DNA from: Candidatus Marinacidobacterales bacterium
Lineage (GTDB): Bacteria; Acidobacteriota; Vicinamibacteria; Marinacidobacterales; DATDRI01
DNA: 64,000 nucleotides
Reading direction: 5' to 3'
Assembly: GCA_965226495.1 (NCBI GenBank)
Contig: OZ245365.1
Location: forward strand, 2,880,001-2,944,000
The position numbers and the translations under genes were made by a program. Shown one piece after another: positions 4,269-48,729 of this stretch (its first letter is position 1; each line of letters starts with the position of its first letter). The notes beneath the pieces were generated by a model. The model worked only from the letters and a program-made list of their open reading frames with translations. It was not told where the DNA came from and searched no databases.

Positions 4269-7200
4269 GGCGTAGTGGCGCTGATTATCGAAAAGGAATG
4301 ATTGTCAGCCTCGTCGCTGGTCTTGATGGCGAAGTAATACAGGGTCCCCGGAAGTAAGCCGCCGATTTCGAAGCTCTCCTGCGACCCCAGCGACTTGGGT
4401 GCGAGGCCGCTGGCCGCGAGCATCGCGCCATCGAAATTCGTGTCCGTGATCTCGACCGTGTCGTAGCGGATCTCGTAAGAGCTCGCTTGGCCCGTGTTGC
4501 CATCGTCGCCCGGCGCCCCCCATGTGAGCGTGGCATCGATATCCGAACCTCCGGTCTCCGACACTTCGACCCCTGCCAAGGCGGCGTAGAACTTTCCGTT
4601 CGAATATCGGTTCATCTCCGTAACCAACACCCTCACGTAGCGCCCAGATGTAGGAGGAAGATTGAAGGTGTACCACGTGGAGGGGTTTGCCACAAAGCCT
4701 GCTACGGTTACGGCGTCGGTGAAGTTGTTATTAGGGTCGTTGCCGACTTGAAGCTTGAACGACCTAGGAAAGAGGGCCACATTTTGATTGCTCGAGAGGA
4801 GACGCACCTGGCCCACTGAAACTTCCACACCCAGATCGAGTGTGATCCACTCCTGGCGGTGTTGCTTCACCCCCGGCGAAATCCAAAGAGTGGACGGATC
4901 GGCATCCAGCACGTTTGCCTCCGGCGATAGGGCACCCGAAGAGTTTTTCACGGCGAGAGACACAGGCGGGGACGCGAAGCCTACACTGAAGTTGGACACT
5001 TGAGCCGGGGCCTCTTCATCGAGCGTGCTTCCCAACACCACGGCGGATAGATCCGACATCAGGCCACCCGGGTCCACCGCCCTCACCGCACAGTTATAGT
5101 TGGTCTGATTAGCAAGGTTGGTGACTTCGAACGCGAGCGTGTTCCCCGGGCTCACAGGGGAGGGACCGGGGCCGAAGGGAGCGAGGGCCTCGAAATCGCC
5201 GACACCGCTAATGGCGGAAGTCGAGCAACCGATTTCGTAGTGGTCGACTGGCCCCGAGCCGTTGTCGCCTGCGTCGTTGGGAGGTTCGACGAATTCAATG
5301 GTGATGGAGCTTCCGGTGGCGAGGCCGTTCAGCACCTGGAGCCCGGTGATGGGGCCCGGCGGCGATCCCGGAGTGGAGACCTGTATCACGTTCGACAGCT
5401 CGGAGACATTGGAGCTGTCGTCTTCCGTCGTGATGGCGAACCAAAGCAGCTGCTCGGGAGGCAAACCGGTGAGGGCCAGAGTCTCGGGAGAACCCGCCGC
5501 CTGGGGCGCAGGAACCTCCTGGTCGGGCACGGGCGTCGCGTTGTCGAAGTCGTCATCATCCACTATCTCGGTTGTCGCGTAGTGGACGAGGTACTTGCTC
5601 GCCGTCCCCACGTCTAAATCGCCTCCCGGTGACGGTCCACGACAGCATCACGCCGTTCGTCGCGGGAACGTGGCGGAATACTTCGATCTCCGCCAGCTGT
5701 GCGTAGTACTTTTTGTTCGAGTACTGGTTCATGGCGGTAATTCGTATCCGCACGTAGCGTCCGGAGATGGGACTGGGTAGATCGAACGTGTACCAAGTGG
5801 ACGACGCGGCCACGAAGTTGGTGACCGTCAACCCGGTAGCAAAGTTGACTTGAGGGTCGTTACCCACTTGAATTTCGAACGACTTGGCGAAAAGCAGTGG
5901 ACTTTGATTGCTAGAGAGAAGCCGTACGCGCCCGACATCGACTACCGACCCAATATCGACCGTGATGTACTCGACCCGCGTCGGCTTGACACCCGGCGAC
6001 AACCAATAGGTGCTCTCGTCGTCGTCTACCGTGTTGTCTTCGTCGAAGCCTGACAACACTCCCGAGCTGTTGGCCGCGGTCAGGGGCGTCATCTCGCTGA
6101 ACGCTCCACCGCCGGAAGTTCCTTGCAAATCTACGATCGCCGCCGGCGGGATCCCATCGAGCGTCTCCATCTGCGCGTTGTTGGATGGTGGCGACACGTT
6201 GCCAACATCATCTCTGCTTGTGATGGCGAAGTAATAGTGAGTGCCCGGGTCCAGGTTGTTCACCGTCATCGCCTGGGTCGTCCCAGGATCCTGTGGGGTG
6301 GGCGGCACTTCGTCCGTCACCAACATCGTGGATGCGAAATTGCCGGCGCCGATGGGAAATTCCGAGTAGCGCACTTCATACGAAGTGACCTTCCCGCCGG
6401 AGGGTCCATCTTCTGTCGGGGCGTCCCAATCCAACTCCATGCTCGTTTTGGTGGGACCGAATGCGCGTAGGCTCGTAATCACGGCAGGAGGAACCCCTGG
6501 GGTCGCGATAGTCACGATGTTGGACAGGAGCGATCGGTTGCCCGCGTCATCGACGCTCGTCATAGCCGCATTGATTGTGATTTCGTCCGGCAAACCGGTG
6601 ACGGTTAGCGATTGCGTTCCGCCGAGCACCGGGGTGGGCTCGTTGGCAGCCTGGACCGCCGAGTTGTAGTCAAAGGGGATGCCGGCGGACGATCCGCGGA
6701 GATCGTACGTGGCGACGGGCTCCGTGCCGCCACCCTCGTCGTCCGCGGGAGCATCCCAGCTAAACACAAGGGTCCCGAAAACCGGGTTGTCTTTGAGTAC
6801 CTCCACTTCACCGATCAGGGCATTGTAGGGAAACTTGTTGGTGTAGAAGTTCGTGTCGGTGATCCAGATCCTCACATATTGGCCCGAGACGACCGGGGAC
6901 GCATCGAAGTCGTACCAGATGCCCGGTTGTGCAACGAAGTTTGCTTCGGTACGCACCGTTATGTAGTTCGCGTCGGGTTGGTCGCTGACCTGGAACTGGA
7001 AACCCTTCGGGAAGAGCAGCGCGCTGTCGTTGGTTGACGCCAGCAGGCGAATTCGGGCCACCGGCAACGTGGCCCCGAGATCAATGGTCACGAACTCAGT
7101 GGTGACGCTACTCTTGGAAGTACTTTGCCACTTGGTAGCTGGGTCACCGTCAGCGATGTTCTGTTTGGCGCCTGCGTTGCTCGTCCATTCGCTAGAGGCG

Positions 7201-9210
7201 TCGATCGCGGTAAGACCAGATACATCGGTCAGCCCCGATGGAAGCTGCGCGGTGAGCGTCACGGCAGGCGGGGGTTGCGTGTCGATCTCGAGGATCATCG
7301 GCGGGGAGAAGGCACCGGGGATTGCCGCAGCGTCCCGCGCCTGAACTCTCCACTGATAGATGCTGCCAGCGGGCAGTGCCGACGCAGGTGTGAACGACGT
7401 GATCGCGGTGATGACGTCGATCGCGGTCCCCCCACTCGTAACGTTATCCACCACCAACCGGTAGCTGGCGGCGTCCGTCACAGCACTCCACTGGAAAGTC
7501 GGCGTCGTGTCGTTGGTCGCGTCGACGAGGGGGCTTAGCAGATTCGGCGCGGCGAGCACTCCCACGCAACCATCGAGAGAGACATCGTCCACGAAAAAGT
7601 TGGACAAAAACGGAAGACCGGTGGTCGTCGACTCGAAGCGTAGCGTGTGGCTTCCGCCGTCGGCGAAGGCGTCCACGTCGAGGGTAACTTGGGTGTAGCC
7701 GCCGGTGTAAGTGGCATCCCCCTCAAGAGCCGAGAAGATCTCTTGCCCATCGATGAGGACCCGCATATCGTCCACGCCGTTTCCGCTGGAGACATTGATC
7801 CAAAGGTAGAACGAGAGGGATGCCGCCCCGAGCGGAATGTTGACGGCCTGCTCGACGGAACCCTGTTCCACCGATTCATTCTTACCGCCAAACCAGATCC
7901 ACCAATCGCCGGTTCGGGCCGCGGTCACTCCGCAAATGTTGGGGTCGCAAAGCGGCGTCCCAAAGTTGGTCGAAACCTGCGCCCACGCAGGGCTGGCGGT
8001 GCCTCCTTCGAAGCTGCCGTCCGCGACTCTCTCGCTGCACTGACCGGCGGTGGTGAAAGACCAGACCGGTCCGGACACCTCGGTGCCCAAGGAATCCCGA
8101 CTGACGACTCTCCAATAGTACGTGGTGGTGAATTCGAGGAATCCGGGCACGAAGCTGCTTTCAGTTTGGTCGCTCGATAGGAGCGGTGGAGCGGGCGAGG
8201 TCCCGAAGTAGACGTCATAGGTCGAAGCTCCGGCGATCCAGGACAGCGTTGGGGTGTGATCCACTTCGACCGCTCCATCGACCGGCGATGGGGCACGGGG
8301 AGCAATGTCGCCCTGAAGCAAATCGACCCGAAAAGCCCCCCGGCCATGTGTGAAGGCGAAGAGTCTGGTTTGTGAAGCATCGAGCGCAAGCGTTTCCGTC
8401 ACCACGTTGGCAAAGCCGGTGTTCTCGACGGCCCAAGTGGCGCCCGCGTCAATCGAAGTGAAAACACCGAGATCGGTTCCCACATAAAGGCGGCTTCCCA
8501 CCGGAGCCGCCACCGGATCGACCACGATGGAATGGCTCGGTACGTCGGGGATGCCGGTGCTTCCTGAGCCATCTAAATCGACCCAGCTCGCACCGCCGTT
8601 GGTGCTCCTCCACACGTGCACGCCGCCGAACGTCGAATAGGTGGCGTACGCCGTCATTTCGTCCTCGGGATGAAACGCGAGAGACGACACGAATCCGCTC
8701 CTGGGCCGGGTGGACGGCCAGTCGGTCGTGGATGACGCGCCGAGGCCGACGTCGGTGCGATGTATACGCCCGTTGCTCAGCCCCACCAAAACGCGGTTGG
8801 GGTTCGTCGGAGCCACCGCCAGCGCACTCACGGTGCTCCCGAGCTGGGTGCTTGCTTGGAACCAGTTAGAGGCTCCATTTAGAGTGCGCCAGACAAACCG
8901 ACCTCCCGTCCACAACCGCTGAGAGTTACTCGGATCCATGATGAAGGGAGTAATGAAGAGACCGGAATCACTAATGCCGGTGGTGGCGCTCGAAAAGCTC
9001 GCCCCACCGTTGGTGGATTTCCGAATCGCCCAGTTCTGAAACTCCGCATACAGCACGTTGGTGTTGGTGGGGTCGACCGCCACATAGCCACCATCGCCCC
9101 CCATGATCGCCTGCCAGTTCTGCGCGCCGCCGGTGTCGTTACCTCGGATGGTGCCGTTGTCCTGAGTACCACCGAAGTAAGTTTGCCCATCCGGGTAAGG
9201 GGCACCATGG

Positions 9211-9237
9211 CCTTGGTGGTAGCCAGGTACGTGCCGT
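9211..9237. other. 27-nt insertion matching IS256 transposase sequence at 48078-48105 (one-base gap)
   Basis: ccttggtggtagc-caggtacgtgccgt versus ccttggtggtagcgcaggtacgtgccgt. Confidence 0.9.
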
Positions 9238-9354
9238 ACTGCGTCACCCCGTAGTTATTGTTCAAATTGGACCAGACCACGTCGGAGCTCGAGCCCGAGC
9301 ATATGTTGAGGTCGGTCCCCGCTCTGGAATTAAGAGTCCGGTAAATGCCGCCGT

Positions 9355-9527
9355 CGTTTCCCGCGTAGAGTGTGGTGTTGGTCACTCCGTCGTAGTCGGG
9401 CGGAAACACTAAGGCGTGTTGATCGACGTGGGCGCTCCAGGACCGTTTCCCGCGTAGAGTGTGGTGTTGGTCACTCCGTCGTAGTCGGGCGGAAACACTA
9501 AGGCGTGTTGATCGACGTGGGCGCTCC
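9355..9527. repeat. Exact 84-bp direct duplication (9355-9438 and 9444-9527) with 5-nt filler AGGAC
   Basis: Base-by-base identity; the 89-nt period explains the frameshift. Confidence 0.95.
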
Positions 9528-11390
9528 GACCGGCAAAGCCCCAGTTCTGCCCGCCGTCATCGGAACGGAAGAGGTCGACCCCACCGCTCCAGACGATATC
9601 CGAATCCAGCGGATCTACCGCAATGACATTGTCGTACCAACCCTGATTGAAAAAGGAACTGGAGCACAAGGCAAACCAGCTGTTTGTCAGAAGCATCCTG
9701 TTCATAGGGGTCGGATCGTTGTTACGTACGCGAGCCGTCCAGGAACCTCCACCATCCGTGGAACGAAAGACCGCATGAAGACCGTAGAAGAACTGACCGG
9801 ACACACGGCTCGCCGAAAGCGCGTAGATCACATCCTCGTCGGAGGGTGCGATCGCCAACTCAGTCCGCCCCAACCCCGTTTCGGTCAACGATGCGGACCA
9901 CGCACCGCCGCCACCCGCATCCGAATTACGGTACACCGTCGCGTCATTGAACGTACCCCCGCAGGAAGCGAACACCACGTCGTTCGCCGAGTCGGTACGA
10001 GTCGCGAGATCCAGGCACCCGTTCGAGGTCTCGGGGTTTAGCACTTGGGACCAGCTGGTTCCACCATTCAGTGAACGCCAGACCCCGCTCCTCGTTGCCG
10101 CGTAGACTCGCTGCGAGCTGTTCGGGCTCACCACGACGGCGTTCACGTAATGAAAGCTCGAGTTGTTGGTGGAAGCGAGGTGGCTCCAACTCACCCCTCC
10201 GTCGGTCGTCTTGAAGATCCCCGCGCCACGGACCGCGTCGAAATTGAAAATGCCTTCACCCGTCCCGACATAGAGCACGCTGGAGTCATTTGGATCCATC
10301 GCCATCGACGCCACCGCCAAATTGGCCATCAGGTCATCGAGAGCCGACCAAGATGAGCCTCCGTTGATCGTCTTCCACACTCCCCCGGCCACGCCTCCGG
10401 CATACATCACGTCGGCATTTCCGGGGTCGATGACCAGGGCGCGAGTGCGCCCTCCGACGTTTCCGGGACCGAGCTCCTCCCAGGTGGAGAGCGCTTGCAT
10501 CGCGGAGGCGGTCATCCCTATTGGAGCCATGAGGTCGGACGCCGTGGAGTAAACCGACATGTTCCTCATTTGCCTCTGAGCACCCAAGTAGCGCTCCACT
10601 GGAACCGCCGTCTCCCCTACCGGAGCCCGCTTCGCCCGATAGTACTCTTGCGCCTCCGCCGGTTTATCGAATCGAGCCTTTCCCTTGACGAGCTTGCGTT
10701 CGAGGCTCGCCGGCTTGGAAACAGGCAGCACCGACGAAACCCTGATGACGCCGCCGCGACCCGGCACGTGAGGCGGATGGGTCATGGCAAGAGCGCAAAG
10801 GCTTCCATACACGAGAACGATGAAGCCCGGTCGGTTGCCTTTTTTCATCTAGGCCTAGCGGTCGCGCGCGAGGGCGTTTTGTTACTTTGCTCCGCGGTAA
10901 CGCGGGAGGCAAAGCCACTCGGTTTCCACGTCATTCCATTTCGTCCTTCCGCGGGGTCGGGTATCTAGACTGCAGATCCCGTGCCACGGACCCCAACCAC
11001 CCTGTGCGTCTTGTCGGGCAAAGATGGTGTTTAGGTACCTCGCTAAGTCTATAGAATTGGGGAGCTTGTTGACAGAGCCACTAAGTCGACTTTTCTCATT
11101 CGGCCGGGCGTTTGCCCTCACTGAGGCGATCCCTATACCGGTTACAAATTTCGTCGGGTTCGCAGTGCTAACTTATTGCAAACAAGTGATTTCGATCACA
11201 CGGTGGAACGAATATGTGCTTGTAGCGATACCGACGGCGGCGGCCACCGGCCCCCTCCTCTACGGCTCCGTTGCTCCGCCGAGCGTTCAGACTGGATTGG
11301 CGGCGCTCTTTGTGGCAGGATACCCCCCGCAGTTCGTCTCTGGAATCACGGCGCGCTACGAAAGCGCCCGGTAGTAGAAACACGGGAGGG

Positions 11391-45428: not shown

Positions 45429-46202
45429 TTAGCACGAGGCCCTTACCAGCATCGCCCGCAGCCCGCAGCCGACCGCTGCCTCGAGGATCTCCACGTCCGG
45501 AAATCGATGGCTAGATATGACTGCGACCCGCGGGACTCCCGCCACTGGTCCTTTTGGCCCATCCTGCTCATCTGGGTCCGCTGCGGCATGAAAATGGAGC
45601 GCGAAACGGTAACAGGGAAAGGCGATGGGAACGGATGGTGACGGCGTCCCGCCCAGCAACAGTTGCGTTTCGGGCAGAGGCGTGAGGCCACCGCACACAG
45701 TGCAATAGTAGCGGGGATCGGGATGGGCAGGAGGTGAGCTCTCAAGAGGGTGCTCCTCCCCGCAGGGAGGACACACTTGGCGCGCGCCCTCCAAACCGTT
45801 CAGTCCGACCATCCTGAGCCTCTTGTAGCCTCGTACCTCTATTCTTTGTGTTTTGGCTGTCTTTGTGTTTTTGGCGGTCCCGACCCCAATGTCAGCCAGA
45901 GGCTCTCGCCCCGGCCGGCCGAGGTTGACATGGATCGCCTCCAACCCGTTGAGTTTTTCCGCACGCTCGCAAAACTCATCGAAGCTATCGGCCTCGAACG
46001 CTTGGCCTTCGCCGGGCGGCGGGTCGCCTGGTTTATCGGGCTCAGGTGGGTTCTCGCGCAGCGAGCCCCAGAAGGTTCCTCCCGTTTTGAGACCAAGCTC
46101 CAGGGTCCGATCCATTGCGTCGAGCAGTTGCGTCACTCGACCCGCCGAGGGCACGTAGTAGGCCTCTCTAGGGAACAGATAGAACAGAATCGGTTTCCTC
46201 AC
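45429..46202 (-). CDS. Hypothetical protein with CxxC...CxxC zinc ribbon
   Basis: Fills the gap between the serine hydrolase and exeA; CPPC and CTVC. GTG start is tentative. Confidence 0.6.
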   Translation of the reverse strand: MRKPILFYLFPREAYYVPSAGRVTQLLDAMDRTLELGLKTGGTFWGSLRENPPEPDKPGDPPPGEGQAFEADSFDEFCERAEKLNGLEAIHVNLGRPGREPLADIGVGTAKNTKTAKTQRIEVRGYKRLRMVGLNGLEGARQVCPPCGEEHPLESSPPAHPDPRYYCTVCGGLTPLPETQLLLGGTPSPSVPIAFPCYRFALHFHAAADPDEQDGPKGPVAGVPRVAVISSHRFPDVEILEAAVGCGLRAMLVRASC

Positions 46203-47232
46203 GGGCGGTTTCCGCCGCGTTGGGGGCTGTAAAAAGAAAATAATCGTAGGCATAGCGAGCGATGTTCGCGATAGCATTCTCCGCTTTGTCACGATCCTCG
46301 CAGCTCCGGCTGAGCACGGAGAGAATGACATGCCCTCGTCCTTGGGGGAGATAAATGATACCGACGTCGTCGACCGTGCCCCCGATAGTTCCCGTCTTGT
46401 GAGCCACCTCGACGGATTGGGGCAATAGGCCTCGGATTCGATTGACGCCCGTGTCGCACTTGAGCATGATGTCGACCATCCTTCTGCAAGACTCCGGGCT
46501 CGCGGCTTGGCCGAGGAAGATCTTTTCCAGCAAGAGATTCATTGCCGCCGGCGTGGCTGTATCTTGGATATCCGTCTCGAAGCGGGTGGCCGCCATCTCC
46601 AGCTCCCCGGGTTCCACCTGATAGTCATTGAGCTTCTTTTCGAGCTCTTCGTAGGTCAGACTATCCACATCCCACGCTTGGAACCCCATGTGATCCATAA
46701 TCAGCCGTTGGGTGCTCCGGCTTACGACTAATTCAGAGACCCCCAGTGAAGCGAGGCGCTGATTCACATTCTCGATCCCGACTCGCGCCAAGACGAGATC
46801 GGTGGCGCTGTTGTCGCTGATACGCATCATCAGGAACGCCAAGTTCTCCATCGAGAGAGAGACTCCCGGGACGATGAAGCGCTTGAGCTGGCCACTTCCC
46901 AGATGAAGGTCGAACCGGTCGAGCGACATCATTTCGTCCAGGCGAATCTTTCCCTCGTCCACCTGGTTGAAGAGCTCCACCAGAATCGCCACCTTGTAGG
47001 TGCTGGCCATCGGGTAGGACCGGTATCCGTTGACAACGAGCCATTCACCGGACTCGACGTGCTTGATGGCAACTCCCATGTCCCCCGACGAGCCGGCGAT
47101 GGCCTCTTCGACCGCCAGCCGCAGCCGATCGGTCCCGCCCTCACCGGCCACCGAGGTTTTGGCCAATAACAAGCAGAGGAAAAACGGCAATGCCCTCGTC
47201 AGCGTCTTCAAATGTACCCCCGGCGGAACCAA
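46168..47232 (-). CDS. Class A beta-lactamase-like serine hydrolase
   Basis: ASTYK (SxxK), SDN, HKTG, DTATP; signal peptide; omega-loop region atypical. Confidence 0.88.
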   Translation of the reverse strand: MVPPGVHLKTLTRALPFFLCLLLAKTSVAGEGGTDRLRLAVEEAIAGSSGDMGVAIKHVESGEWLVVNGYRSYPMASTYKVAILVELFNQVDEGKIRLDEMMSLDRFDLHLGSGQLKRFIVPGVSLSMENLAFLMMRISDNSATDLVLARVGIENVNQRLASLGVSELVVSRSTQRLIMDHMGFQAWDVDSLTYEELEKKLNDYQVEPGELEMAATRFETDIQDTATPAAMNLLLEKIFLGQAASPESCRRMVDIMLKCDTGVNRIRGLLPQSVEVAHKTGTIGGTVDDVGIIYLPQGRGHVILSVLSRSCEDRDKAENAIANIARYAYDYFLFTAPNAAETAREETDSVLSVP

Positions 47233-47329: not shown

Positions 47330-48729
47330 GGTCAAGTCTTAATTTTCCTGTCAAATCTCCGTACGGTTCCCCGCGCTCGGTTAAGCTGCTGATTCCTTCG
47401 ACGTGCCTTGCGGGAGAAGCTCGTTGCGAAGCTCCTCGACTTTCCTAGCGGCGAAGACATCCATCCTCACGCCGCGCCATTTGTTTGCGACGGCCAAGAG
47501 CACAGCGAACGAGAGTTTCATCGCGGCCTCCTCGGTGAAGAAGTGAGGAATGACCTTTGTGCGACGTTTGTGCTCTCCGAACGTGCGCTCAAGTAGATTC
47601 GACGTGCGAAGCCTTTTGTGATGCGCCGCAGGAAGGCGTAGCGCCTGAAGACACGCTTCGAGGGTCTCTTCCATGCACTTCATCGCGCTCGGGAATCGTT
47701 GACGGTACCGAGCGATCACCTCCCGACCCTTCTTCAGCCCTTGCTCGTAGCTGTTCGCATGGAACGACTCAAGGATGGCCGCCTTGAGTTCGTCGCGCAC
47801 TTCCTTCGGAGCCTTGCCCAGGATGTTCTCGAGGCGGTGCTTCTGGCAACGTTGCTTGAGGCTTCGAGGGAAGACCTCTGCGATCGCTTTGAGCACTCCA
47901 GGATTCCCGTCCGTCACGATGAGCAACGGCTCCCTCATTCCTCGGGCCACCATCTCCTGCAAGAACCCCTTCCAGTTCTCGTAGGATTCTCGGTTGCCGA
48001 CACCGATATGAAGAAGAACTCGCGTCCCATCAGCGCGATAGCCGGTCGCAACGAGGATGGGCTCTTTCCTCTCCGCTCCTTGGTGGTAGCGCAGGTACGT
48101 GCCGTCGAGCTCGAGATACAACAGCTTCTCGTTCGAGAGATCCCGTTTTCGAAACGCCTCGAAATCCTCCGACAGACACCGTGTGACCCGGCTCACCACC
48201 GACTTCGAGACACCCGTGCCGCTCAGCACGTCCGCGAACGTCGCCTCAATGTCACGCGTCGACATCCCGTGGACGTACATCCGCGCGATCAGTTCATCGA
48301 GTTTCTCGGTCCGGCTCACGTAGGCGTCGAGAATCTTTGACTGAAACACCTTCTCTGTTTCTCGTACCTGCGGCACTTGCACCGTTACCGCTCCCTCGCC
48401 CGTGAGGACCCGATGCGACTCATACCCGTTGCGTCGTCCCTTCTCCTTCGTCGTTGCCGGAGCGTTCTCATAGTAGTTTCGACCCAACGCCTCCGTCACC
48501 TCGCGCTCCAACGCATATTGAAGCATCATCTGAGCTCCCGACCGGACGATCTCCGAGAGATTCATCTCCCCAAATACCAGTTGTTCCTCGAACTGCTTGA
48601 GCAATCGCTGACTCGGTAGTACCTTTCCCATGATGTATGGTTCTCCTTTTCTGTCCCCATGACGGGGACGGGTTTGAGCTTGGGGAACCATACATCGTTT
48701 TTCTTTGACAGGAATCTTAAGACATCACC
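47330..48729 (-). mobile_element. IS256-family insertion sequence (1400 bp)
   Basis: 26-bp imperfect TIRs GGTCAAGTCTTAATTTTCCTGTCAAA (47330-47355) and the reverse complement of 48704-48729 match at 22/26; they enclose the transposase. No TSD visible. Confidence 0.92.
47381..48631 (-). CDS. IS256 (mutator) family transposase
   Basis: RNGY, MYVHGMSTRD, LELDG, IVTDG, QRCQKH, TSNLLER; AAGGAG RBS before ATG 48631. Confidence 0.95.
   Translation of the reverse strand: MGKVLPSQRLLKQFEEQLVFGEMNLSEIVRSGAQMMLQYALEREVTEALGRNYYENAPATTKEKGRRNGYESHRVLTGEGAVTVQVPQVRETEKVFQSKILDAYVSRTEKLDELIARMYVHGMSTRDIEATFADVLSGTGVSKSVVSRVTRCLSEDFEAFRKRDLSNEKLLYLELDGTYLRYHQGAERKEPILVATGYRADGTRVLLHIGVGNRESYENWKGFLQEMVARGMREPLLIVTDGNPGVLKAIAEVFPRSLKQRCQKHRLENILGKAPKEVRDELKAAILESFHANSYEQGLKKGREVIARYRQRFPSAMKCMEETLEACLQALRLPAAHHKRLRTSNLLERTFGEHKRRTKVIPHFFTEEAAMKLSFAVLLAVANKWRGVRMDVFAARKVEELRNELLPQGTSKESAA

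What the first reader, a model, noticed from the sequence alone, without database searches (positions are those of the whole stretch)
9211..9237. A 27-nt piece of the IS256 transposase gene is captured inside an unrelated gene 39 kb away
Seen: 9211-9237 equals 48078-48105 as exact 13-nt and 14-nt blocks separated by a one-base gap. The donor is internal to the transposase (DGTYLRYHQG, at the first catalytic Asp), not an IS end, so this is not a transposition footprint. The frame shift fits 27 nt replacing 4 nt if the ancestor read VTQ-FY-HGAP (inferred). Donor and target flanks are imperfectly similar (ccaaggagc vs ccatggtgc, minus strand). Known: short-patch double illegitimate recombination (SPDIR, described in Acinetobacter baylyi) and templated end-joining leave such scars. 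Inference: a short fragment of this IS or a sibling copy was written into the chromosome.
Basis: partly seen in the sequence, partly recalled or inferred. Interest (0 to 1): 0.85.

Follow-up and report, generated by a model that had tools for sequence, protein, structure and literature searches.

The report
Transposon-derived filler scar breaks a gene
Twenty-seven bases copied from the middle of a jumping gene have replaced four bases in a large surface-protein gene of a marine Acidobacteriota strain and broken it; sister strains still carry the intact gene, so this is a fresh DNA-repair scar, one of about a dozen like it in this genome.

Summary
Window 9211-9237 equals 48078-48105 minus one G. 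The 28-mer lies in 11 copies of an IS256-family element. The 27-mer occurs once in this genome and in 0 of 40 relatives.

Contigs in 4 of 4 public runs omit 23 letters and retain TAGA. A 1726-aa sister protein reads VTQ-FY-HGAP and shows no other amino-acid difference. So 27 nt replaced TCTA. An 89-nt tandem duplication 117 nt away is equally private.

The scar is not isolated. At least eight other loci hold internal pieces of this IS or an IS5-like one. Four of them were resolved against an ancestral allele. The genome also carries 51 small two-copy tandem duplications.

The joints share no microhomology, which fails SPDIR's defining feature. Ku and LigD are present. I favour end-joining repair with IS-derived filler (0.45) over SPDIR (0.2), replication template switching (0.15) and artefact (0.12). 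No read carrying the patch was seen.

The scan noted a similar 29-nt IS1380 scar in another genome (e1-2203896).

The parts
9211..9237 (-). 27-nt patch derived from the IS. It replaces TCTA (codons TTC TAC, Phe-Tyr) of the host gene, a net +23 nt, and shifts the reading frame.
   Evidence: sequence match; 23 letters are left out in contigs of 4 of 4 runs, and the retained letters are TAGA on the + strand; intact sister protein.
9355..9527 (-). Private tandem duplication with period 89. Two 84-nt identical copies lie at 9355-9438 and 9444-9527. The 5 nt at the joint (9439-9443) read as an 87-nt duplication plus 2 extra nt. It shifts the frame.
   Evidence: a joint 9354->9444 skipping 89 nt in contigs of 3 of 3 runs that cover it. 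Absent from the G002 orthologue.
5556..10848 (-). Host gene: a secreted Sortilin-Vps10/BNR beta-propeller protein with fn3 and two F5/8 type C domains. It is intact at 1726 aa in sister strains. Here it is split over three frames: 10848..9409, 9409..8879 and 9104..5556.
   Evidence: 468 + 39 + FY + 1217 aa = 1726 with 0 differences.
48078..48105 (-). Donor 28-mer inside the transposase gene (encodes GTYLRYHQG). It is identical in all 11 places of the genome that hold it, so the donor copy cannot be named.
47330..48729 (-). Nearest IS256-family copy, about 1400 bp, with imperfect terminal inverted repeats. Six of the 7 other full copies examined have clear 8-bp (one 7-8 bp) target duplications. 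This copy has none.

Best explanation
The patch is a recent repair scar private to this lineage. The chromosome broke inside the Phe-Tyr codons of a dispensable surface-protein gene and four bases were lost. The ends were sealed around a short filler stretch derived from one of the IS256-family copies. Because neither joint uses microhomology, the sealing looks like Ku/LigD-type non-homologous end joining with filler DNA. The filler was made by an error-prone, skipping copy process or taken from a degraded transposition intermediate. The 89-nt tandem duplication 117 nt away is a second scar of the same repair class, possibly from the same event. Shown: donor, ancestor, exact boundaries, privacy of both lesions, the sister scars elsewhere, and the presence of Ku and LigD. 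Inferred: that a double-strand break started it, that Ku/LigD did the joining, and why IS DNA is the preferred filler.
For: Ancestor and boundaries are fixed.

The joints carry 0 and 0 nt of microhomology, and the flanks match 1 of 12 and 3 of 12.

Ku (164 bits, 346-aa open frame) and the LigD polymerase domain (238 bits, 729-aa open frame) are present.

Four further patches were resolved against an ancestral allele:
- Genome 2477095-2477214: IS 365-455 + C + IS 497-524 replace CC in an IS3-family copy whose three other copies are intact.
- 4209614-4209754: 5 + 136 nt replace CG relative to G002.
- 1872477-1872536: 60 nt of an IS5-like element replace C.
- 4733106-4733171: 66 nt, plus a local 10-nt duplication and fillers.
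Their junction microhomology is 0-4 nt.

Sites 5527706 and 4733106 are private by protein length: 412 vs 414 aa and 196+80 vs 249 aa, each against 6 sister contigs.

The genome holds 51 two-copy tandem duplications of 20 nt or more. Twenty-nine have 0-5 nt of junction microhomology and 22 have short filler or mismatch. This is an end-joining-like signature.

Two of the 8 duplications looked up also occur in independent sister contigs. G002 has a similar density, 4 in 800 kb. So this class of lesion arises in vivo.

NHEJ capture of DNA fragments into chromosomal breaks is shown experimentally in Sinorhizobium (PMC6379672; abstract and passages read).
Against: The patch lacks one base relative to all 11 donors, which simple ligation of a fragment does not explain.

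Multi-piece patches are always collinear and in one orientation: 7 of 7 loci, counting K's 13+14 blocks as two pieces. That points to copying with template jumps, not ligation of loose fragments. Long templated filler is not an established property of bacterial Ku/LigD.

No read carrying the patch was seen. All 4 runs laid show the intact allele.

Of the lesions looked up, 6 of 8 duplications and the 2 other patch loci checked (G and N), as well as K, are private to this one assembly. A technical artefact of this assembly would give the same pattern.

The in-frame excess among duplications inside ORFs is not significant (9 of 18, p = 0.11).
Confidence: 0.45

Rival explanations
1. It is an SPDIR microindel. 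A single-stranded remnant of IS DNA annealed at a replication fork and was built into the nascent strand like an Okazaki primer.
For: The size (27 nt for 4 nt) lies within the 3 to about 100 bp range, and the donor is intragenomic (bioRxiv 10.1101/2023.11.22.568220, introduction read).

Elements that make ssDNA are over-used as donors 85- to 214-fold per kb (10.1101/2024.07.02.601687, section 13). The authors expect other mobile elements to contribute as well. Here IS donors are over-used about 100-fold or more per kb (my estimate).

Gaps inside 'extended microhomologies' could account for the skipped bases. An 8-of-10 similarity exists near the right joint.

RecJ, a suppressor of SPDIR, was not found with TIGR00644 in 0 of 26 genomes of the order, against 13 of 14 controls.
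Against: The defining microhomology at the joints is absent at this site: 0 and 0 nt, with flanks at chance level. The 8-of-10 similarity is out of register, and the product carries both versions in tandem, which annealing and integration would not give. The co-occurring tandem duplications and junction fillers are not SPDIR products. RecA and DprA are intact.
Confidence: 0.2
2. It is one complex replication-based template-switching event of the MMBIR/FoSTeS type. A collapsed fork re-primed first backwards, which gave the 89-nt duplication, then briefly on an IS copy, which gave the patch, and then returned.
For: Two private lesions lie 117 nt apart in a gene with no other amino-acid change. 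By chance a given patch would have a duplication within 300 nt about 0.5% of the time (my estimate). Site 4733106 shows a local duplication, fillers and an IS patch in one contiguous lesion. Collinear skipping inside patches fits a low-processivity polymerase.
Against: Template switches normally use 2-5 nt of terminal microhomology, and here there is none at either patch joint. The 117 nt between the two lesions is unaltered. No run separates the two lesions, so linkage in a single event is untested. Once the gene is dead a second lesion is neutral, which raises the chance of coincidence.
Confidence: 0.15
3. It is an artefact of this assembly or its library (a chimeric molecule or amplification product), not a mutation in the organism.
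For: Four of 4 runs laid, and 4 sister contigs, carry only the intact allele. Most lesions of both classes that I could check are private to this assembly. The genome also differs from its sisters by a C6-vs-C5 homopolymer frameshift.
Against: Fillers come overwhelmingly from the genome's own IS elements and not from random DNA. Direct duplications outnumber local inverted repeats 51 to 5, the opposite of displacement-amplification chimeras. Two duplications recur in independent sister contigs, and G002 has a similar density. One private 21-nt duplication protein is listed with a Logan source; this is only a hint. A closed 6.3-Mb contig implies good coverage.
Confidence: 0.12
4. It is the remnant of a full IS insertion that was later whittled down by deletions.
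For: Pieces in mosaic patches are collinear with the IS. True IS remnants with internal deletions exist in this genome: 3996514-3997816, 4638742-4638835 and 5759730-5759875, which keep an IS end.
Against: There is no IS end and no 8-bp target duplication. The host flanks are intact to within 1-11 nt at 5 of 5 resolved sites. The gene shows zero other changes, which leaves no time for an insertion plus two precisely placed deletions.
Confidence: 0.04

Closest known systems
SPDIR microindels of Acinetobacter baylyi (Harms et al. 2016, recalled; bioRxiv 10.1101/2023.11.22.568220 and 10.1101/2024.07.02.601687, sections read)
   Same: A short ectopic stretch from elsewhere in the genome replaces a few bases. 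The product is a microindel traceable to its donor. Donors that are mobile or produce ssDNA are over-used.
   Different: There is no microhomology at either joint. The scar is accompanied by tandem duplications and junction fillers. It is seen in a wild genome, not in a selection assay. The supplements listing the 114 experimental events could not be opened (bioRxiv supplements are closed), so I could not compare joint statistics.
Ku/LigD NHEJ capture of heterologous DNA in Sinorhizobium meliloti (Dupuy, Sauviac and Bruand, NAR 2019, PMC6379672; abstract and passages read)
   Same: A DNA fragment is inserted into a chromosomal break without homology, with small losses at the ends. Ku and LigD are present here.
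   Different: The experiments used an electroporated cassette and an I-SceI cut. Here the filler is 27 nt of the cell's own IS, differs from the donor by a skipped base, and sister scars are multi-piece and collinear.
Polymerase-theta-mediated end joining with templated insertions and small tandem duplications in eukaryotes (own knowledge; PMC2895639 and PMC2943611 seen only in a search listing)
   Same: It combines templated filler from cis or trans templates, repeated template jumps, short tandem duplications and little junction microhomology.
   Different: Bacteria have no Pol theta. The bacterial enzyme that would do this is unidentified.
Earlier finding of this scan, e1-2203896: a 29-nt piece of an IS1380 transposase gene inside the neighbouring DUF1552 gene (another genome)
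   Same: It is an internal IS fragment of nearly the same size, it causes a frameshift, and it was read as a filler scar.
   Different: It involves a different IS family and genome and an adjacent donor. I did not re-examine it.

Membership tests
SPDIR microindel | A short patch (3 to about 100 bp) of ectopic DNA substitutes for a short stretch of the target | tested here: met
   27 nt replace TCTA.
SPDIR microindel | The donor sequence is identifiable elsewhere (intra- or extragenomic) | tested here: met
   27 of 28 bases match all 11 IS places that hold the 28-mer. No copy with the exact 27-mer was found in 41 genomes.
SPDIR microindel | Both illegitimate joints lie at microhomologies or extended microhomologies between donor and target | tested here: not met
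   The joints carry 0 and 0 nt. Flanks match 1 of 12 and 3 of 12. The 8-of-10 similarity is 7 nt out of register. No hybridisation-energy calculation was done.
SPDIR microindel | A single-stranded donor is integrated at a replication fork; the process is suppressed by RecA, RecJ/ExoX and DprA | not testable with these tools
   RecA and DprA are intact. recJ was not found with TIGR00644 in 0 of 26 genomes of the order, so this is not specific to this strain.
Ku/LigD end joining with captured or filler DNA | Ku and LigD are encoded in the genome | tested here: met
   PF02735 at 164 bits and TIGR02778 at 238 bits, both over their cut-offs and with no stops.
Ku/LigD end joining with captured or filler DNA | Joints have no or minimal microhomology, with small loss at the break | tested here: met
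   0 and 0 nt of microhomology with 4 nt lost here. 0-4 nt of microhomology at the four sister sites, where 1-2 nt are lost at three and about 11 nt at the fourth, site N.
Ku/LigD end joining with captured or filler DNA | The event depends on Ku and LigD | not testable with these tools
   This needs genetics.
IS256-family transposition product or excision footprint | IS termini or inverted repeats are present, or an 8-bp target duplication is left behind | tested here: not met
   The patch is IS positions 753-780 of about 1400. The target lost 4 nt and shows no duplication. Real copies show 8-bp duplications.
Ectopic Cas1-Cas2 spacer integration | A spacer-sized insert is flanked by a duplicated, repeat-length stretch of the target | tested here: not met
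   There is no flanking duplication. Patch sizes elsewhere range from 18 to 136 nt. cas genes were not searched.

The most novel reading that the evidence does not exclude
This Vicinamibacteria-like lineage records a burst of break repair that leaves a bacterial counterpart of the eukaryotic theta-mediated end-joining signature. That signature consists of dozens of small tandem duplications plus templated, multi-jump fillers. The fillers are drawn about 100-fold or more preferentially from IS elements, because transposition intermediates, or abortive strand transfers, supply the template. Structural scars accumulated while point substitutions did not, as would be expected if repair happened in non-growing (dormant or desiccated) cells.
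Probability: 0.25. Interest if true: 0.75.

Novelty: new member of a known kind. Interest (0 to 1): 0.5.

Why it matters
Filler or patch insertions are known mainly from selection assays (SPDIR) or engineered breaks (NHEJ capture). Documented examples in wild bacteria with both donor and ancestral allele in hand are rare. This genome offers five such scars with known ancestors, plus a matched set of intact sister alleles. That lets the joint rules (microhomology, skipped bases, donor choice) be read directly. The strong preference for IS DNA as filler extends the recent finding that ssDNA-producing plasmids are over-used donors to a second class of mobile element. It also means IS elements can inactivate genes without transposing into them. 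The scar itself has no function: it kills a 1726-aa glycan-binding surface protein.

Tried and rejected
- Chance match: rejected because the match boundaries equal the insertion boundaries.
- A variant IS copy carrying the exact 27-mer: none in this genome, and none in 40 relatives, including G001 (about 30 copies) and G002 (about 9).
- Close relatives in metagenome contigs: the scan returned 80 loci, the best only 67% identical. They served only to show the conserved QFYHG motif.
- Ancestral alleles for sites 2498891 and 5527706 in G002: flanks were not contiguous or not found. Sites 1926245 and 1928283 lie in an IS-rich stretch and were left unresolved.
- Strain-specific loss of recJ as a cause: rejected, because recJ was not found anywhere in the order.
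- Selection test on duplication length: not significant. Overall 23 of 51 periods are multiples of 3.
- Displacement-amplification chimeras: disfavoured.
- Read laying: bins 9365-9426 without cover in X1 and X13 reflect the collapsed repeat. X2 does not cover the duplication. Neither is used as evidence.
- 'Independent knock-outs' of this gene in two sister assemblies (P0005-P0008): both involve 1-nt losses at one CCGG site and may be base-calling errors, so I do not count them.
- Literature: five searches found no paper in the held library describing IS-derived filler in bacterial chromosomes. Chayot et al. 2010 is not held.
- No structure, complex or RNA tools were needed.

Full report
**1. 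The observation.** Window 9211-9237 and 48078-48105 share a 13-nt and a 14-nt exact block. They differ only by one extra G (48091) in the second place. The gapped pattern matches these two places and nothing else in the window, with 0.00 matches expected in 100 shuffles. The window is G000:C1:2880001-2944000 of a 6,337,479-bp single-contig genome. In that genome the 28-mer occurs 11 times and the 27-mer once.

**2. The donor.** The 28-mer lies inside a 436-aa ORF (48691..47381, minus strand). This ORF is a Mutator/IS256-type transposase (PF00872, E 4e-77).
- The element is about 1400 bp and has nine full-length copies plus truncated ones.
- It has imperfect terminal inverted repeats. Six of the 7 other full copies examined have clear target duplications of 8 bp (one of 7-8 bp). 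The window's own copy has none.
- The same IS occurs at about 100% identity in two other species-level genomes of the genus, with about 30 matches in G001 and about 9 full copies in G002.
- None of 40 relatives holds the exact 27-mer. No donor copy with the one-base deletion was found.

**3. The recipient.** On the minus strand a large gene is split over three frames: 10848..9409 (479 aa), 9409..8879 (176 aa) and 9104..5556 (1182 aa). It carries Sortilin-Vps10/BNR, fn3 and F5/8 type C domains. A perfect 84-nt direct repeat with period 89 lies at 9355-9438 and 9444-9527. On the gene strand the joint reads as an 87-nt tandem duplication with 2 extra bases.

**4. The ancestral allele.** Three independent lines agree.
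- *Same-genus orthologue.* The G002 orthologue (about 83% nt identity) has six bases (TTCGAC, Phe-Asp) where the window has 29. It also lacks the duplication.
- *Public runs.* Contigs of 4 of 4 runs laid on 8900-9800 (X1, X11, X13, X2) are letter-identical or near-identical to the window. The difference is that 23 letters are left out within 9211-9237. In the three runs that cover the site, a joint 9354->9444 skips 89 nt. The retained letters spell TAGA on the + strand, which is TTC TAC (Phe-Tyr) on the gene strand.
- *Sister protein.* The exact-sequence look-up puts the window's two large ORFs in a cluster with a 1726-aa protein found on 4 other contigs, the longest 5.4 Mb. The window's three frames give 468 + 39 + [FY] + 1217 = 1726 residues with no amino-acid difference.

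In addition, 55 of 79 distant homologues from metagenome contigs read QFYHG at this place, and I saw none with extra residues among those printed. Both lesions are very recent and private to this assembly.

**5. The scar is one of a series.** BLAST of the IS against the genome shows short, 100%-identical internal pieces at other loci, beyond the full and truncated copies:
- 1926245-1926410 (40+20+63 nt)
- 1928283-1928370 (43+30 nt)
- 2477095-2477214 (91+28 nt)
- 2498891-2498927 (37 nt)
- 4209619-4209754 (136 nt)
- 5527706-5527773 (18+50 nt)

A second element, IS5-like (DUF772 + DDE_Tnp_1), has isolated pieces at 1872477 (60 nt) and 4733106 (66 nt), among others.

Four of these sites could be compared with an ancestral allele.
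- At 2477095, 120 nt (two IS pieces with a 41-nt skip and one extra C) replace CC in an IS3-family copy whose three other copies are intact.
- At 4209614, 5 + 136 nt with a 6-nt skip replace CG after codon 6 of a signal peptide, relative to G002.
- At 1872477, 60 nt replace a C.
- At 4733106, the IS piece sits beside a local 10-nt duplication and fillers and replaces about 11 nt.

Junction microhomology is 0-4 nt at these sites. Outside the patches, donor and recipient flanks match at 0-5 of 12 positions, which is chance level. Sites 5527706 and 4733106 are private to this genome by protein length, each against 6 sister contigs.

Loci 4638742 and 5759730 keep an IS end and are flanked by 38-nt and about 130-nt direct repeats. 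I class them as IS-end remnants, not patches.

**6. Donor bias.** A census of isolated two-copy exact repeats of 26 nt or more with dissimilar flanks gave 43 hits, or 35 pairs. Most are tRNA 3' ends or GC-rich palindromes, and at most about ten could be patches from unique donors. The IS256-like element makes up about 0.24% of the genome yet supplies six such loci besides the one under study. The per-kb excess is therefore about 100-fold or more. This is my estimate, and detection thresholds are similar but not identical for the two classes.

**7. Tandem duplications.** TRF finds 51 two-copy duplications of 20-435 nt at 98% identity or better.
- Twenty-nine are exact with 0-5 nt of junction microhomology, mostly 1-3 nt. 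Twenty-two have a short filler or mismatch at the joint.
- Several break genes, including a Pyr_redox_2 oxidoreductase, a Na/Pi cotransporter, a TPR protein and a giant C25-peptidase protein.
- Eight of 10 in-frame cases were found in the protein collection. Five are longer than their sister proteins by exactly the duplicated length (467 vs 460, 383 vs 361, 693 vs 684, 570 vs 547 and 491 vs 462 aa). One is a singleton. Two duplications (45 nt and 27 nt) recur in independent sister contigs.
- An 800-kb sample of G002 holds 4 such duplications against 6.4 expected at this genome's density. The class is therefore a trait of the genus and not of one assembly.
- Local inverted repeats with arms of 25 nt or more number only 5.
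- In-frame enrichment is weak: 23 of 51 overall, and 9 of 18 inside ORFs (p = 0.11).

**8. Mechanism.**
- *End joining with filler (favoured, 0.45).* The joints of the 27-nt patch share no base with either the lost TCTA or the donor's neighbours. That fits blunt end joining better than annealing-based models. Ku and a LigD with a polymerase domain are encoded. NHEJ capture of DNA into chromosomal breaks is established experimentally (PMC6379672; abstract and passages).
- *What simple ligation leaves unexplained.* It does not account for the skipped base, nor for the strictly collinear, same-orientation pieces at 7 of 7 multi-piece loci. Both imply a copying step that jumps along one template.
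- *SPDIR (0.2).* It shares the outcome and the donor bias but fails its defining microhomology test here.
- *Single template-switching event (0.15).* One replication event that made both lesions is possible but untested.
- *Artefact (0.12).* This stays open because no read with the patch was seen and most lesions checked are private to this assembly. The IS-biased donors, the direct-over-inverted asymmetry and the shared duplications argue for an origin in vivo.

**9. Context from the scan.** Earlier notes call this a marine Acidobacteriota genome with real gene decay (e1-780488) and sister populations carrying different knock-outs (e1-780472). Names say Vicinamibacteria. Another genome yielded a 29-nt IS1380 filler scar (e1-2203896).

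**10. Verdict.** The observation and the core of the interpretation stand. The thing is a non-functional repair scar of a known general kind. It is unusually well documented and is part of a lineage-wide pattern that deserves read-level confirmation.

Noticed in passing
genome-wide (G000), e.g. 387538-387710, 889624-889850, 1929860-1929990, 4024335-4024682: The genome holds 51 near-perfect two-copy tandem duplications of 20-435 nt, with 0-5 nt of junction microhomology or short fillers. Several break genes. Most of those checked are private to this genome, and two are shared with sister contigs.
   Followed up: partly
L002 (G002 orthologue), about 45 nt upstream of the patch site: The same-genus orthologue has its own 1-nt indel that creates a stop (open frame 487 aa). 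The gene may be broken, or mis-called, there too.
   Followed up: partly
window about 8040-8050 (codons TTA-GQC of the host gene); proteins P0005-P0008: Two sister assemblies show different 1-nt losses at one CCGG site of this gene, plus other breaks. These are either a hotspot or base-calling errors at a methylation-type motif.
   Followed up: partly
order-level, 26 genomes including G000: recJ (TIGR00644) was not found in any of the 26 genomes, although the same search rings in 13 of 14 control genomes. RecA and DprA are present in G000.
   Followed up: partly
window 47330-48729 and G001, G002: The IS256-family element is about 100% identical across three species-level genomes whose housekeeping DNA differs by about 15%. 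This implies recent horizontal spread. The window's copy lacks the 8-bp target duplication that the other copies have.
   Followed up: partly
G000 4638704-4638975: A 38-nt direct repeat containing a ribosome-binding site and a gene start flanks a 196-nt insert. The insert begins exactly at an IS end, skips within the IS and ends in 102 nt of unique sequence. It looks like an aberrant one-ended insertion.
   Followed up: partly
G000 about 5642613: A C6 run, against C5 in sister proteins, frameshifts the C-terminus of a 1066-aa Vps10-like paralogue that also carries the shared 45-nt duplication.
   Followed up: partly
window 46168-47232 (minus strand): A 354-aa ORF beside the IS reads like a serine beta-lactamase-fold protein (an S-T-Y-K motif in the translation). 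The label is from my recollection of the motif and no family search was run.
   Followed up: no
G000 1926245-1928370: Two multi-piece IS-fragment mosaics lie 2 kb apart in an IS-rich stretch, about 15 kb from the dnaE2 end-copy locus noted earlier in the scan (e1-1438033).
   Followed up: no
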